Part shown: piece after piece, positions 7,725 to 22,232 of the stretch
How positions within the stretch are numbered: the stretch's first letter is position 1
Layout of the letters: each line of letters starts with the position of its first letter
NCBI RefSeq assembly: GCF_009914755.1
Contig: NC_060933.1
Source: the human T2T-CHM13v2.0 reference genome, Homo sapiens
Length of the DNA: 64,000 nt
Direction: 5' to 3' (one strand)
The notes under the pieces: generated by a model
The model's input: only the letters and a program-made list of their open reading frames with translations
What the model was told of the DNA's origin: nothing
The model's database searches: none
Made by a program: the position numbers and the translations under genes

Positions 7725-8644
7725 CACAACAAAATAATTTCAATAAAACATTTTCACATATGAAAAGTTAGTTTTAGAATTGCATTTAATGACTCTTTAT
7801 ATCCAGAAGGCATTTAAAAATAATAAATAAAGACATTTTAAGAAGGGCAAAAACCTAGCAGAAAACAGTTTTCTCTTCTAGCTAGTCTGTGCTGGAAGAC
7901 TGGGTAGAAATGATGCATTTTATCATTATCATCTGAATGTAACAGATGGAAGCCAGCTATGGATAAATCTACAACTCCAACAAAGACTGGAACAATTTAT
8001 CTCATCAAAATTAAGCACTTCATTTTCAGTGAGTTGAAGAATCACAACATGATTCTCATCTTAAAATTATACAGTTCAATGTGATTCATACTTCACAGTG
8101 ACAATAAAGGCAAACATAAGACTATTCTACTAAAGCAGAATTTTTGAAAATCAGAGTTTTAACCAAAAGTTTAAATTAACTTCCAAACTTATTTGCTCTT
8201 ATGAGTAAATTTTGATGCTGGAAGCAAATATTTTAGTGGTAAGTATGAATGCGAAGGCTACAAAACGAAATTGTAGGCTTCCTACTAGTGGCAACAGATT
8301 GTAGGCTACTCGTGCCTACTAGTGGCAACCCATTAGGAAATGAGCTCATGGACTTTCTTCCAGGTAAGATCAAAGAAGTCAGTGTGCTTACTACCCTCAT
8401 CTTGCACATGACTTTCCCCTCACTTTATTCACGCTTCTATTCAAATACTTCTTTCCAAAGGCAGCTCTTCCCTGACCTCTACATCCAGCTTTAGTGTTCA
8501 TCATAGCACTTAGCTCGATTTACACTTTGTATTTCTTTAAATACTGTATGTCATTTCTATTAAACGTAGGCTGTATATGAGCAGTGACTGAGTTCAATTC
8601 TGTATCCCAATCACCTTAGATAGGTGTTCATCAAATATTTGTTG

Positions 8645-8782
8645 AAAGAAGGAAGAAAAGAGGGCAGGAAGGAAGGAAGGAGGGAGGGAAGGAAAGAAAG
8701 AAGGGATGGAGGGTGGGGGAAAGAAACAGGGAAAAGGAGGAAGAAAAGGGAGGGAAGAGGGGAGAGAGGGAAGAAGGAAGCA
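8645..8782 (+). repeat. Polypurine (GGAA/GA-rich) tract
   Basis: About 140 bp almost free of pyrimidines. Confidence 0.9.
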
Positions 8783-9934
8783 AGCAATGGTCAGTGGCTT
8801 GGAGGCATCTGCCTAAACACATGCACTGTGGCTAAGGAAAAAGGAGAAAGCAAGAACACTACAAGCAGCTGTCCCAGGTGCTGCCCTCAGGTCACTGAAC
8901 TTACAGAGCATAAAGATACAGGGAGCATTGGCTGCCCTTGGTGTCAGCTGCGCTCAGCACACTTTAGTTTGTGAGCTTGCTCCTCTTCTCTATCTCTAGC
9001 TTTGAGGCAGCCCTGAGAACGATGGTCACTTTCTTCTCCTCCTTATTTCCTTTTATTTCAAAACTAGAACGGGGAGGCATAGAACTTGAAGGAGGACATA
9101 GCTGAGATCTGTGCAAATAGGAACTCTGTAGCTTGGTGCCCACATCCGAATGGATGCATAGAGCAAAGCCTGAACCACACTGAGGACTAGAGCAGGTAGA
9201 TTAGGATATCAGTGGATGGACAGCAAAACGGGAGCAGACAATGAATAAGATCCCTTCCAAGTGGGAGCTTCTCTTTGTGACTCTGGGAAAGCTGATAGGG
9301 CAGCAGCTGCACCCTTACCACTCAGCAACCCCCAAAGGAGAAACATCAGGGGTGGGTTACCCTCCAGCAGTGCTTTACTGCTCAGATTTAGGAAGGTGAG
9401 AAACCTGCTGCCCAGTCATAGGACTGCAGCATGCCAGGGACCCTCCAGAAGCAATATGCTTTTAATCACAGATGAAAAGTACTTAATAGTTACTGAACTA
9501 CATAAAAACAATGACAACCGATCCAAGGAGAGAAGTTAACTCTGTTAAGCCAACCAAGTGACACAAGGTTTTGCCTGGAGGAAAGAAAACAGAGAAACAA
9601 GCTGTGATCTTCCTTTTTTGTAGCAAGTGCTTTGAATCTCCTTGGAGAAGGAAGTCCACAGAGAACAATTTGATTTCTAAGTGAGTAATAATTAGATGCT
9701 CTAAGTTTTCAATTTGATAAAGCTACAAACATCCTGGCATTTCTTCTCCACTGCACCCCAACCCACAATATGGGGGTATAAAGCCTTTGGGATCCTCTCA
9801 CTGGAGAAGTCCATATCTGAGATACCTCATTTTACATCATAAAGCTTTGAGGAAATTATATCATGTTTAAAAACTTTTTAAAAGAAGGCGCCACATGATG
9901 TTATAATATTGGGTAGCATTTTACCACCAAGTAG

Positions 9935-10454
9935 TGATGGGGTCAGAACAAGTCATCCCAAAATATGCCACTTTGATGTATTATTTTGAGCTAAAAGAAA
10001 CTGAGAACCAGTCAATGCAGAAAAAGCACTTCGCCTCCCCATCTGCTTAAAGTATAATTTCCCATTTGTAAAGGACATTTTTATTAGTAAATGTATCTAT
10101 CTTTGCCAGAAAGAGAGTTACTCATAGATAACTTTTTCTCACTGGAGAGACTTTTATCTGCATAGCAAGGTAACCTTTATTCACCACACATTTCCTCCTC
10201 TCGCCTTCCCACAATTCATCTCTACCACTCCCCAGTACCCCCAAATCCTTATTCCTATTCCTTACTCTAGCTTAAGATAGTATCTGTCTCAATCATCTGG
10301 CTGCTTCCTGGAGTCTCATATTTTGGTGGGACTCCTGTGCATATGTGAGTAATTAAATATTTTTTCTCCTTTTAATCTGTCTAATGTCAATTTAATTCAT
10401 AGACCAGCCAAAAAACCTCAAAGGGTACACAGAAGCAATTTTCCCTCTCCTACA
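9935..10454 (+). mobile_element. Solo LTR, ERV1-class (MER34/MER4-group-like)
   Basis: TG...CA termini, 520 bp, 4-bp TSD GTAG (9931-9934 and 10455-10458). Confidence 0.8.
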
Positions 10455-19281: not shown

Positions 19282-21015
19282 GTGGCTTTCGAACTGTGAA
19301 ATGGGCAGAGGTTGGAAGAGTGTGGAGGGCTCAGAGGAAGACAGAAGGATGACGGAAAGTTGGATCTTCCTAGAGACTTGCTGAATGGTTGTGACCCAAA
19401 TGCTGATAGTGATATGGACAGAGATGGCCAGGTGGATGAGGTCTCAGATGGAAATGAAAAACCTATGGGAAGCGGAGCAGTCACTTCTCTTAAGCTTTAG
19501 CAAAGAGCCTGGCTGCACTGTGCCCCTGCCAAGGGATATGCGCAACTTCGAGCTTGAGAGTGATGATTTACGGTATCTGGTGGAAGAAATTTCTAACCAG
19601 CAAAACATTTGAGATGTAGACTGGCTGCTTCTAGCAGCCTAGGCTCATATGCACAAGCAAAGAAATGACCTAAAACTGGAACTTATATTTAAAAGGGAGC
19701 ATAAAAGTTTACAAAATTTGTAGCATAGCCATGTGGTAGAAAAGAAAAGCCCATTTCTGGGTGAAGAATTCAAGCAGGCTGCATCAATTTGCATAAGTAA
19801 AGAGGAGCCAAGTCTAATAGTCAAGACAATAAAGAAAAGGCCTTGAAGACATTTCAGAGACCTTTGCAGCAGCCCCTCCCATCACAGGCCCAGAGGCCTA
19901 AGAGGACAGAATGGTTTCCTGGGCCAGGCCCAGAGCCCCACTTCCCTGCACAGCCTTGGGACACTGTTCCCCCACATCACAGTCACTCCAGCTCCAGCTT
20001 CAGGTCAGATACAGCTCAGATACAGATACAGCTCTGGTCACTGCTTCAGAGGGTGCAAGCTGTAAGTCTTGGCAGCTTCCATGTGATGCTAAGCCTGTGA
20101 GTATGCAGCGGATAAGAGTTGAGGCTTGGGAGCCTCTTCCTAGATTTTGGAGGATGTATGGAAAAGTCTGGATGTCCAGGCAGAAGCCTGCTGCAGGGGG
20201 AGATTCCTCATGGAGAACCTCTATTAGAGCAGTACAGAGGGGAAATATGGGGTTGAAGCCCCCACAAAGATTCCACTGGGGCACTGTGATGGTTAATACT
20301 GAGTGTCAACTTGATTGGATTGAAGGATGCAAAGTATTAATCCTGGGTATATCTGTGAGGGTGTTGCCAAAGGAGATTAACATTTAAGTCAGTGGGTTGG
20401 GGAAGGCAGATCTACCCTTAATCTGGATGGGCACCATCTAATCAGCTGCCAGTGAATATAAAGCAGGCAGAAAGACGTGAAAAGGTTAGACTGGCGTAGC
20501 CTCCTGGCCTACATCTTTCTCCCGTGCTGGATGCTTCCTGACCTTGAACATCGGACTCCGAGTTCTTCAATTTTGGAACTCGGACTGGCTATCCTTGCTC
20601 CTTAGCCTGCAGATGGCCTATTGTGGGATCTTGTGATCGTGTGAGTTAATACTTAATAAACTCCCCTTTATATATATACCCAGAGTGGTAGATCCACTGA
20701 CAGCTCAGACCCTGCTCCTGGAAAAGCCACAGACACTCAACACCAGCCCATGAGAGCAGTTGTGGGGGCTGAACCTTGCAAAGCCACAGGGATGGAGCTG
20801 CCCAAAGCCTTGGGAGCCCATCCCTCACACCAGTGTGCGCTGGATGTGGGACATGAAGTCCAAGAAGATCAGTTTGGAGCTTTAAGGTTTAATGACTGCC
20901 CTGCTGGGTTTTAGATGCATGGGGCCTGTAGCCCCTTTATTTTGGCCAAATTCTCCTATTTGGAATGAGAGTGTTTACCCAGTGTATCTTGGAATACCTC
21001 CAATGTATCTTGGAA
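19282..21015 (+). mobile_element. MST/THE1-type MaLR internal fragment without LTRs
   Basis: Typical MaLR-int sequence (gggcagaggttggaagag...gagggctcagaggaagacag; cagcccctcccatcacaggcccagaggccta). Confidence 0.85.
20285..20678 (+). mobile_element. MLT2A (HERV-L LTR), 3'-truncated at its TA repeat, nested in the MaLR-int
   Basis: tgtgatggttaatactgagtgtcaacttgattggattgaaggatgcaaagta... is the MLT2A 5' end. Confidence 0.88.
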
Positions 21016-21384
21016 TAATGAAATTCTAACTTTTTTTTCCAGAAACATTCTAAGGCATGGCTTTTCAAATTCTTATCTAAGAACAAGCATAGGAGAAGTG
21101 GGACCTGGAGAAATTTTTACCTTTAAAAACCCTAGAAACCAAGCATATAAGATGATAAAATGATTGCTTTTAAAATAATAAAATAATATTTTGACTTTAA
21201 AACTTTATTTTTAAAAGCAAGAAAAATTGCTATTACTGGCCTTAATTGTACCTATTCATTTTTCTATTTGTGACTGAAATAAGCATTTAAGGTGATCATT
21301 TTCAAGTATAAAAGTTTACACTACATTATACAATCTGTGCAATCAACCTCACTATAAACTCAAGACATAGAAATTAACAGAAGT

Positions 21385-21667
21385 GGGTGGGCACAGTGGC
21401 TCATGCCTGTAATCCCGGCACTTTGGGAGGCTGAGTCAAGTGGATCACTTGAGGTCAGGAGTTTAAGACCAGCCTAGGCAACATGGTGAAACCCCCATCT
21501 ATACTAAAAAAAAGTTCAAAAATTAGCTGACATGCTCACTTGAACCCAGGAGGCAGAGGTTGCAGTGAGCAGTGGGCCAAGATCGTGCCACTGCACATCA
21601 GCCTGGGTAACAGAGCAAGACTCTGTCTCAAAAAAAAAAAAAAAGGAAAAAGAAAGAAAAAAGAAAA
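21385..21667 (+). mobile_element. Alu with internal deletion, inserted in duplicate block B''
   Basis: 16-bp TSD AGAAATTAACAGAAGT at 21369-21384 and 21668-21683. Confidence 0.93.
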
Positions 21668-22232
21668 AGAAATTAACAGAAGTCACCAAAATCATGTTGA
21701 AATCATAATTAAGGCAATAAGCAGTTTAAGCAGGCAGGGTTGGGAAAATTATGTTTTAGATTATGCTTCTCTATAAAAAATGAATTAATTTGTTCATACT
21801 GAAACTTTGTCTAACACTATTGTCTGTTGCATAGCTCTTGGAATAAGGCAGATCCACAGTAGAAAATTAAAACGTTTCACTTCTAGTACAGGTTTATGGC
21901 CTGTACCACAGAGAAAGATTAGAAATGGCATCAGTATATCAAATAAGCGTTTACAAATGAACAATAAAATTTTGTCTCCATTTTTTAAAGCACAGCCTTT
22001 TACCTTGAGACCAATACACAACACTCTAGATGAAATAAATCAGCATTATTTACTTCAGCTTGATATAATATTAATTGTTATATGGCTAAACAAAATGGGT
22101 ATTTGTATGATAATATTTAGCTTAACTTACTCTCTGGTTATGTATATAATGAAACTAGAGATGAAAGAAAAAATGGAGTAGTCATCATGAGCAAATAAGA
22201 GAAAAGAAAGCAGACAAGAAAAGATGGAAACA

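What the first reader, a model, noticed from the sequence alone, without database searches (positions are those of the whole stretch)
7815..22140. Hidden ancient tandem triplication in the large PLGRKT intron, possibly the remains of a nested gene
Seen: blocks that match no repeat family I recognise recur in the same order and orientation (A..B, A'..B', B''). They are clearly diverged but share 13-24 nt exact anchors. Each copy has its own later insertions (Alu in A', L1PA between A' and B', Alu with TSD in B''), so the duplication predates them. Inference: a multi-kb unit was duplicated at least twice. Several blocks have exon-like properties (next findings), which suggests a decayed, internally repeated multi-exon gene antisense to PLGRKT.
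Basis: partly seen in the sequence, partly recalled or inferred. Interest (0 to 1): 0.8.

Follow-up and report, generated by a model that had tools for sequence, protein, structure and literature searches.

The report
Old intronic tandem duplication, no gene
A stretch of a large PLGRKT intron really does hold two to three very old, decayed copies of the same few kilobases laid side by side, but they look like neutral non-coding leftovers of an ancient local duplication and not the remains of a gene.

Summary
Blocks A (7809-8420) and B (11255-13296) recur in the same order and strand as A' (14082-15005, split by an Alu), B' (18045-19281) and B'' (21015-22149, split by an Alu). Identity is 66-75%. 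BLAST scores are 119-596 bits, against at most 31 bits in 50 dinucleotide shuffles.

Whole-genome searches find A and the 5' half of B nowhere else except in a young copy 76 kb upstream. Controls show that the same tool detects old interspersed repeats. Only the 3' ~1 kb of B ('E', 12252-13296) has one other old locus, in the last intron of PIGF on chr2, plus small fragments on chr13 and chr17.

I found no coding signal. Pfam gave no hit in six frames. Mismatches show no 3-base periodicity and indels show no bias to multiples of three. The one 130-codon open frame is not shared by its paralogues.

The two breaks in collinearity are each filled entirely by later repeats. Window 4152-16079 was also re-copied at ~92-94% identity next to RLN1, at the same identity as RLN1/RLN2.

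Verdict: an ordinary, ancient (order of 100-200 Myr) non-coding local duplication. Interest is low.

The parts
7809..8420 (+). Block A, unit 1. 35% G+C, non-coding.
   Evidence: 69% identity to A'; genome-wide there are only 4 first-look candidates, namely A itself, its young copy upstream, A', and the upstream copy of A'.
8421..11254 (+). Spacer X1 between A and B. It is present only in unit 1. It holds a GA-rich simple repeat (about 8644-8790), an old interspersed repeat (about 9931-10459) and an Alu (about 10792-11161).
   Evidence: 605 candidates, with dispersed hits at 68-75% identity on query 1511-2039; the rest has no dispersed hit apart from the simple repeat. Alu/SRP-type hits at 10839-11122.
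11255..12251 (+). Block B, 5' part. It is found only locally.
   Evidence: aligned to B' over its whole length and to B'' from 11989. K80 of 0.30-0.36 to B'; no dispersed copy, apart from one 58-nt AT-rich hit on chr11.
12252..13296 (+). Block B, 3' part (element 'E'). It is shared with B' (up to eq. 12490), with B'' (up to eq. ~12880) and with one old locus on chr2 in the last intron of PIGF.
14082..15005 (+). Block A', unit 2. It is split by an Alu at about 14340-14654.
   Evidence: 14082-14324 and 14655-15005. SRP-type hits at 14370-14654 on the - strand.
15010..18040 (+). A 5'-truncated L1 with an A-rich tail. It fills the whole gap between A' and B'. No target-site duplication was seen.
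   Evidence: RVT_1 hit and an ORF2-like reading at the 5' end; 84-87% identity to other L1 copies; 5206 candidates for 17760-18047; the junction sequences.
18045..19281 (+). Block B' (equivalent to B 11255-12490).
   Evidence: E 6e-172..
19282..21014 (+). Internal fragment of a high-copy LTR-type retroelement, truncated at both ends, with an extra insert of about 390 nt at about 20287-20679. It fills the whole gap between B' and B''.
   Evidence: 13624 candidates, of which 40 were scored, at 72-82% identity; six other copies keep aligning with each other beyond both ends of this one.
21015..22149 (+). Block B'' (equivalent to B 11989-~12880). It is split by an Alu at 21384-21660 that has a flanking direct repeat.
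   Evidence: (family D20).
4152..16079 (+). Extent of a younger segmental duplication, at about 92-94% identity to chr9:5323141-5339430, which ends about 600 bp from RLN1. It carries A, X1, B, A' and the 5' part of the L1, but not B' or B''.

Best explanation
This is a neutral relic of an ancient local (tandem) duplication of non-coding intronic DNA.

Proposed history:
1. A unit that contained A, a spacer and B was copied head to tail, giving A'-B'. Today the unit measures about 6.3-6.8 kb start to start. It was shorter before the later insertions.
2. The stretch equivalent to 11989-12490 exists a third time, as the start of B''. This came either from a third, later-trimmed unit or from a ~0.5-kb internal tandem duplication of B'.
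3. All copies then decayed at about the same rate, to about 73% pairwise identity.
4. Each copy was hit separately by later insertions: Alus, a 5'-truncated L1, and an LTR-retroelement fragment. The spacer of unit 2 was probably lost when the L1 inserted. This step is inferred from two facts: the L1 fills the gap exactly, and it has no target-site duplication.
5. In the catarrhine ancestor, window 4152-16079 was copied again, together with the relaxin gene, to the RLN1 flank.

Shown here: the homology, its collinearity, its near-absence elsewhere in the genome, the lack of coding signal, and the nesting of the later insertions. Inferred: the order and mechanism of the events, the age, and the lack of function.
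For: 1. The collinear, same-strand matches are far above chance.

2. Genome-wide searches of the T2T assembly give only local copies plus the young upstream copy. A gave 4 candidates, all scored. B gave 8 candidates, all scored. The same tool returned 13624, 605 and 5206 candidates for three known-type repeats in the same region. One of those is an old family matched at 68-75% identity, so matches at this level of divergence are detectable.

3. B, B' and B'' all carry the same junction between local-only sequence (eq. 11989-12251) and the chr2-shared element E. They therefore descend from one chr9 ancestor and not from separate insertions of E.

4. The three pairwise identities are equal: A/A' 72.7%, B/B' 72.9%, B/B'' 72.7%. 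This fits events close together in time.

5. Insertions are private to single copies. The L1 and A' are already present in the copy that is about 92% identical.

6. There is no coding signal. Pfam found no family in the blocks in six frames; the only hits at E<=1 were RVT_1 at the L1 edge and a chance-level DUF3920 (E 0.054) in B''. The fraction of mismatch pairs spaced at multiples of 3 is 0.319, 0.331 and 0.321, against shuffle values of 0.324+-0.008, 0.327+-0.011 and 0.324+-0.009. Indels that are multiples of three number 6 of 24, 1 of 9 and 3 of 17. The open frame in B'' is not conserved. Rfam gave only Alu-type hits.

7. Age. The K80 distance between old copies is 0.29-0.46. The young duplication has p=0.062 over 10311 sites. 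Its relaxin part is dated to 44.2-29.6 Ma in PMC3971578 (passages read). The ratio is about 4-5, which gives an order of 100-200 Myr.
Against: 1. The 3' kilobase of B (E) is not purely local. It has an old paralogue in the last PIGF intron on chr2, a 193-nt fragment on chr13 and fragments of about 65 and 38 nt on chr17. The chr2 copy is closer to each chr9 copy (K80 0.26-0.39) than the chr9 copies are to each other (0.36-0.46). A repeat family would show this star-like pattern.

2. The genome search uses a word-based first look. A stretch that I took for an old LTR (13400-13850) gave only 4 short dispersed hits. A very old, low-copy family could therefore be missed. No Dfam/RepeatMasker run or profile search of this genome was possible.

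3. After B'' the homology stops at eq. ~12880, while unit 1 runs on to 14081. The array is therefore not a clean tandem repeat, and later deletions have to be assumed.

4. No orthologous sequence from another mammal could be examined, so the age rests on a rough local clock.

5. Lack of function is inferred from the lack of signals. It was not tested.
Confidence: 0.78

Rival explanations
1. The blocks are separate insertions of an unrecognised, very low-copy ancient mobile element, or fragments of one long element that spans A to B. On this view they landed close together by chance or by local hopping, and no segmental duplication took place.
For: E (12252-13296) has dispersed relatives on chr2, chr13 and chr17. 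The distances are star-like, with the chr2 copy in the centre. The chr13 piece covers only the 3'-terminal ~190 nt of E, as a 5'-truncated retroposed copy would. E starts with TG and ends with CA, which is weak evidence.
Against: - A and the 5' kilobase of B have no copy outside chr9p24.
- All three local copies share the same flank-to-E junction.
- Three same-strand insertions within 15 kb, from a family with only one other old locus in 3.1 Gb, is very unlikely.
- No transposase, RT or other TE domain appears in six frames of 7800-14340.
- No terminal repeats or target-site duplications were seen at the chr2 copy.
- The three chr2 loci are 96-98% identical to each other, so they count as one old locus.
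Confidence: 0.1
2. One reading: the blocks are exons and introns of a decayed, internally repeated multi-exon gene on the + strand, nested antisense in PLGRKT.
For: - One 130-codon open frame at 21789-22181 is longer than the 95th percentile of shuffles, 120 stop-free codons inside the block against 80.
- B holds a splice-like acceptor and donor pair at about 12005-12068.
- The neighbourhood (relaxin/INSL genes, CD274/PDCD1LG2) has a history of tandem gene duplication. For INSL4 this comes from PMC3971578 (passages read). For CD274/PDCD1LG2 it is recalled.
Against: - Pfam found nothing in any frame of the blocks.
- There is no insulin/relaxin or PIG-F remnant.
- There is no codon periodicity and no indel-length bias.
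- The open frame has 4-6 stops in B, in its upstream copy and in chr2.
- The splice-like motifs are not shared by B' or B''.
- The blocks are 30-35% G+C, and the other four have stop-free runs at or below the shuffle medians.
- The supplied RefSeq table has no + strand model here.
Confidence: 0.03
3. The repeated blocks are duplicated cis-regulatory modules, for example enhancers for PLGRKT, CD274 or the relaxin genes, and are kept by selection.
For: - The 5' part of B differs least in both comparisons: K80 0.30 to B', and 0.032 to the young copy against 0.05-0.09 for the rest of B.
- The chr2 copy of E has a short branch and lies about 100 nt upstream of the last PIGF exon.
Against: - The low-divergence tract in the young duplication (1.8-2.8% at 9000-10499) also covers the unit-1-only spacer with its inserted repeat. 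It therefore looks like gene conversion or regional rate variation, not block-specific constraint.
- About 73% identity between copies is what neutral decay gives.
- The RefSeq functional elements listed for the window all lie outside 7815-22140.
Confidence: 0.06

Closest known systems
Ancient intrachromosomal (tandem) segmental duplications, of the kind seen only as low-identity self-alignments of a genome
   Same: Same-strand collinear copies a few kb apart, about 70% identical, each broken up by its own younger transposon insertions. There is no coding content.
   Different: The array is imperfect. The spacer is missing from unit 2. The third copy starts inside B and ends early. One sub-block also has a paralogue on another chromosome.
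The catarrhine RLN1/RLN2 segmental duplication (Arroyo et al. 2014, PMC3971578; passages read)
   Same: Window 4152-16079 has a paralogue at 92-94% identity that ends about 600 bp from RLN1. RLN2 and RLN1 are 92.5% identical over 6.8 kb. The two pairs lie in the same order and on the same strand.
   Different: It copies A, B and A' but not B' or B''. The passages I read do not mention PLGRKT or C9orf46 (0 occurrences). Whether the intron piece belongs to the same event is my inference from the equal identity.
Low-copy ancient interspersed repeats, such as the small 'Eulor', 'UCON' and 'MER' families of Repbase/Dfam (names recalled, not checked)
   Same: Element E is about 1 kb, non-coding, has a handful of old dispersed copies, and its distances are star-like.
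   Different: Only one independent old locus outside chr9 was found, plus two small fragments. No termini or target-site duplications were seen. No library was available to test membership.
L1 insertion-mediated deletion (described in the literature; recalled)
   Same: A 5'-truncated L1 with an A-rich tail and no visible target-site duplication sits exactly where about 2.4 kb of spacer present in unit 1 is missing from unit 2.
   Different: This is inferred from one locus only. The alternative cannot be excluded without an outgroup: the spacer may be an insertion in unit 1, with the L1 hitting the homologous site by chance.

Membership tests
Interspersed repeat family (transposable element) | Many dispersed copies elsewhere in the genome | tested here: not met
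   A gave 4 candidates and B gave 8, all of them local, the young upstream copy, or the chr2 locus. Controls in the same region gave 605, 5206 and 13624 candidates. Caveat: the word-based first look can miss very old families.
Interspersed repeat family (transposable element) | Dispersed copies of the sub-block E (12252-13296) | tested here: inconclusive
   There is one independent old locus on chr2, copied twice more at 96-98% identity, plus a 193-nt piece on chr13 and pieces of about 65 and 38 nt on chr17. These are too few to call a family and too many to call E unique.
Interspersed repeat family (transposable element) | Defined termini, target-site duplications, or TE protein domains | tested here: not met
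   No RT, transposase or integrase domain in six frames of 7800-14340. No target-site duplication or terminal repeat at the chr2 copy.
Interspersed repeat family (transposable element) | Match to a curated consensus (Dfam/Repbase) | not testable with these tools
   No repeat library is held. DNA-alignment and sequence-model searches of this genome are not accepted.
Protein-coding gene or its pseudogene | Similarity to a protein family | tested here: not met
   No Pfam family at E<=1 in the blocks, in 30 six-frame readings. The only hits were RVT_1 at the L1 edge and a chance-level DUF3920 at E 0.054. The best tblastn hit for a PIGF last-exon remnant had E 0.51.
Protein-coding gene or its pseudogene | Codon-like substitution and indel pattern between paralogues, and shared open frames | tested here: not met
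   for periodicity and indels; the 130-codon frame is private to B''.
Protein-coding gene or its pseudogene | Transcript evidence on the + strand | not testable with these tools
   The supplied RefSeq table lists no + strand gene in 7815-22140. No RNA-seq data were available.
Local tandem or segmental duplication | Copies in the same order and orientation that share junctions between unrelated sub-blocks | tested here: met
   The order A->B and A'->B'. The local-only/E junction is shared by B, B' and B''.
Local tandem or segmental duplication | Presence or absence of the copies at the orthologous locus of outgroup species | not testable with these tools
   No other mammalian genome is held.
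Catarrhine RLN1/RLN2 duplication block (for window 4152-16079 only) | A paralogue next to a relaxin gene at the same divergence as RLN1/RLN2 | tested here: met
   92.2-93.7% identity against 92.5% for RLN2/RLN1, in the same order and strand.

The most novel reading that the evidence does not exclude
Element E (window 12252-13296, with copies in B' and B'') may be the trace of an undescribed, nearly extinct ancient mobile or exapted element. Its best-kept copy lies about 100 nt upstream of the last exon of PIGF and evolves at about half the rate of the chr9 copies. On this reading the PLGRKT-intron array records a local amplification of that element together with its flank. The slow chr2 copy would then be a conserved intronic module of PIGF with a repeat origin.
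Probability: 0.1. Interest if true: 0.35.

Novelty: new member of a known kind. Interest (0 to 1): 0.15.

Why it matters
It matters little for biology.

- It is one more example of how old local duplications persist as ~70%-identical, transposon-riddled blocks that repeat maskers leave unmarked. Such blocks can be mistaken for exons or unknown repeat families.
- It shows that about 12 kb of the PLGRKT intron belongs to a ~92-94% duplicon beside RLN1, with signs of patchy gene conversion. This matters for read mapping and variant calling between RLN1/RLN2 and the PLGRKT-CD274 region.
- It gives a rough local clock. The young layer dates to about 30-44 Myr, and the old layer is about 4-5 times more diverged.

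Tried and rejected
1. Pfam on raw six-frame references failed because of stop codons. I repeated it with the stops read as X.

3. A profile search of the genome for E was not possible. A DNA alignment is not accepted. A sequence-only model R1 was built, but this genome cannot be searched with it. As the best substitute I used the slow-evolving chr2 copy as the DNA query.

4. I considered that chr9 holds a partial genomic copy of PIGF. I rejected this. Homology ends about 100 nt before the PIGF exon, and tblastn of that exon against the window gives only noise, with a best E of 0.51.

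5. I considered that the element at 19282-21014 is a clean insertion with a 5-nt 'TGAAA' target-site duplication straddling the B'|B'' junction. I rejected this. Six other genomic copies keep aligning with each other past both ends, so the window's copy is an internal fragment and its ends are not element termini.

6. I considered that the low divergence of the 5' part of B reflects constraint. I rejected this as unsupported, because the low-divergence tract also covers the unit-1-only spacer.

7. Rfam gave only Alu-derived SRP, mir-1268 and mir-3135 type hits, plus one sub-threshold SCARNA7 hit at 24.9 bits against a gathering score of 65.

8. Literature. Three full-text searches found nothing on a duplication inside the PLGRKT intron. 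PMC3971578 was useful only for the date of RLN1/RLN2.

9. TRF finds no array in 7815-22140.

10. The names L1PA, MaLR/THE1-MST, MLT1-like and SVA used for the inserted repeats are recalled from sequence motifs. They do not come from a library call.

Full report
**Observation.** I ran a self-comparison of window 7001-23000 (BLASTN, word 11, +1/-1 scoring), an independent repeat finder, and a comparison of each block with the whole 64-kb window. On the + strand, block A (7809-8420) matches A' (14082-14324 and 14655-15005) at 69%. Block B (11255-12490) matches B' (18045-19281) at 69% over 1290 columns (E 6e-172). B 11989-12857 matches B'' (21015-21384 and 21661-22129) at 67-72%. B' and B'' match each other at 66-70%. 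The six block pairs score 119-596 bits, against a maximum of 24-31 bits in 50 dinucleotide shuffles each. The longest exact shared words are 12-24 nt. No other copy lies in the window. MAFFT alignments give the same identity for all three pairs: A/A' 72.7%, B/B' 72.9%, B/B'' 72.7%.

**Local duplicates or an interspersed family?** The window's own assembly (T2T human; the window is C9:5394001-5458000) can be searched.
- Block A gave 4 first-look candidates, all scored: A itself, a 90% copy 76 kb upstream, A', and the upstream copy of A'.
- Block B gave 8 candidates, all scored: B itself, a 95% upstream copy, B', B'', three chr2 loci that match only B's 3' part, and one 58-nt AT-rich hit on chr11.

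As controls, three other stretches of the same region behaved as real interspersed repeats:
- 19282-21014 gave 13624 candidates.
- 8421-10790 gave 605 candidates, with dispersed matches at 68-75% identity to about 9931-10459.
- 17760-18060 gave 5206 candidates.

The tool therefore does see repeats at the divergence of interest. One weaker control limits this. A stretch at 13400-13850 that I took, from memory, for an old LTR gave only four short dispersed hits, so a very old low-copy family could escape. No repeat library was available, and profile searches of this genome are not accepted.

**The exception: element E.** Window 12252-13296, the 3' kilobase of B, matches three chr2 loci at about 66-68% over about 1.05 kb. 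Those three loci are 96-98% identical to each other over more than 2 kb, so they are one old locus plus recent copies. In all of them the homology ends about 100 nt upstream of an exon that reads VWPISCTLGATFGYVAGLVISPLWIYWNRKQLTYKNN*. This matches the last 22 positions of Pfam PIG-F (E 0.0065, below the gathering score because it is a single short exon). E therefore lies in the last intron of PIGF (the gene name is recalled) or of its duplicates. Using the chr2 copy as the query adds only a 193-nt piece on chr13 (88% to chr2, 77% to the window) and pieces of 65 and 38 nt on chr17.

K80 distances are star-like. The chr9 copies are 0.36-0.46 from each other, and the chr2 copy is 0.26-0.39 from each chr9 copy. 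The chr2 copy therefore split off at about the same time and has since changed about half as fast. B, B' and B'' all share the same junction between E and the local-only sequence upstream of it (eq. 11989-12251). The three chr9 copies therefore come from one chr9 ancestor by local duplication, not from three insertions of E. The chr9 sequence holds no remnant of the PIGF exon (best tblastn E 0.51).

**Anatomy of the array.** The two interruptions of collinearity in the second half are filled entirely by later repeats.

Between A' (ends 15005) and B' (starts 18045) lies a 5'-truncated L1. It shows an ORF2-like reading and an RVT_1 hit at its 5' end. It is 84-87% identical to other L1 copies. 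High-copy sequence with an A-rich tail runs to about 18040. I saw no target-site duplication. Unit 1 has about 2.8 kb (X1) at the homologous place. X1 includes a simple repeat, one old interspersed repeat and an Alu, but is otherwise without dispersed copies. The simplest reading is that the L1 insertion deleted the spacer of unit 2. This is an inference.

Between B' (ends at eq. 12490) and B'' (starts at eq. 11989) lies a 1.7-kb fragment of a high-copy LTR-type retroelement. Six other genomic copies keep aligning with each other beyond both of its ends, so it is an internal fragment without its own termini. This removed my earlier idea of a clean insertion with a 5-nt target duplication.

With these repeats taken out, A', B' and B'' abut directly. 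The distances do not decide between them. B'-B'' (0.38-0.43) is no smaller than B-B' (0.36-0.46) or B-B'' (0.29-0.40). Homology of B'' ends at eq. ~12880, while unit 1 continues to 14081, so further loss has to be assumed.

**No sign of a gene.**
- Thirty six-frame readings of the non-Alu, non-L1 parts, with stops read as X, gave no Pfam family in the blocks at E<=1. The only hits were RVT_1 at the L1 edge and a chance-level DUF3920 at E 0.054.
- Mismatch pairs spaced at multiples of three are no more frequent than in shuffles, and indels are not enriched for multiples of three (6 of 24, 1 of 9, 3 of 17).
- Stop-free runs are at or below the shuffle medians in 4 of 5 blocks. The exception is a 130-codon open frame at 21789-22181. 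The same frame has 4-6 stops in B, in B's upstream copy and in chr2.
- The acceptor/donor-like pair in B is not kept in B' or B''.
- Rfam gave only Alu-derived hits and one sub-threshold hit.
- The RefSeq table supplied with the finding lists no + strand gene and no functional element inside 7815-22140.

Window 4152-5543, 6959-13343, 13432-14109 and 14098-16079 match chr9:5323141-5339430 at 92.2-93.7%, in the same order and strand. That match ends inside the L1, about 600 bp before RLN1. RLN2 and RLN1 match each other at 92.5% over 6.8 kb. The relaxin duplication is dated to the catarrhine ancestor, 44.2-29.6 Ma, in PMC3971578. I read passages from the abstract, introduction, results and conclusions. 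The paper does not mention PLGRKT or C9orf46. A, X1, B, A' and the 5' part of the L1 are in this duplicon. B' and B'' are not. Divergence along the duplicon is uneven: the mean is p=0.062 over 10311 sites, and 500-nt bins range from 0.018 to 0.122, with a low tract at 9000-10499. I read this as gene conversion or rate variation and not as constraint, because the low tract covers the unit-1-only spacer.

**Age.** The old copies differ by K80 0.29-0.46. The young duplicon differs by about 0.065-0.085. The ratio is about 4-5, which gives roughly 120-230 Myr under a constant rate, and somewhat less if earlier mammalian rates were higher. I state the age as an order of 100-200 Myr, near or before the placental radiation. 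This cannot be checked without orthologues.

**Comparison with what is known, and verdict.** The feature works like, and is best filed as, an ancient local segmental (tandem) duplication of non-coding DNA, overlaid by transposon insertions and by a known-type primate duplicon. It fails the tests for a gene. For A and the 5' part of B it also fails the tests for an interspersed family. For E, family membership is inconclusive. Three full-text searches found nothing in print on this intronic structure. It is real but ordinary. The most novel reading left open is that E is a nearly extinct ancient element whose PIGF-intron copy is conserved. I give that about 10%.

Noticed in passing
window 4152-16079 and chr9:5323141-5339430 (loci L019-L021): A segmental duplication at about 92-94% identity links this part of the PLGRKT intron to the flank of RLN1. 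RLN2/RLN1 have the same identity (92.5%). One end lies inside an L1. Divergence is patchy, from 1.8 to 12% per 500 nt, which suggests gene-conversion tracts.
   Followed up: partly
L006 / L029 (chr2:46586677-46587758), L004 and L005 (chr2 at about 130.6 and 131.9 Mb): An old paralogue (~1.05 kb) of window 12252-13296 lies about 100 nt upstream of an exon that matches the C-terminal end of Pfam PIG-F, i.e. in the last PIGF intron. That chr2 segment has two further copies at 96-98% identity on the long arm.
   Followed up: partly
L027 (chr13:45275965-45276157) and L028 (chr17:18888010-18888361): These are small isolated fragments of the same element: 193 nt at 88% to chr2, and 65 and 38 nt at 92-97%. 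They lie next to or among Alus. Their origin is not resolved; they could be a duplicon scrap or an old truncated copy.
   Followed up: partly
window 44031-45934: A tandem array of about 50 copies of a 37-nt G+C-rich unit (79% matches). It looks like the VNTR part of an SVA element (name recalled).
   Followed up: no
window 35198-35825: A long, impure AT-rich microsatellite or minisatellite, about 630 nt.
   Followed up: no
window 21789-22181 (+): A 130-codon stop-free frame in AT-rich DNA. It is private to B'' and is interrupted by 4-6 stops in all paralogues. I judge it a chance open frame.
   Followed up: yes
window 20287-20679: A stretch of about 390 nt inside the retroelement fragment that the other genomic copies lack (query 1006-1397 unmatched). 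It was not identified.
   Followed up: no
window 13400-13850: A G+C-richer stretch between B and A' that resembles an old MaLR-type LTR (recalled). It has only four short dispersed hits in the genome search. It is present in unit 1 only.
   Followed up: partly
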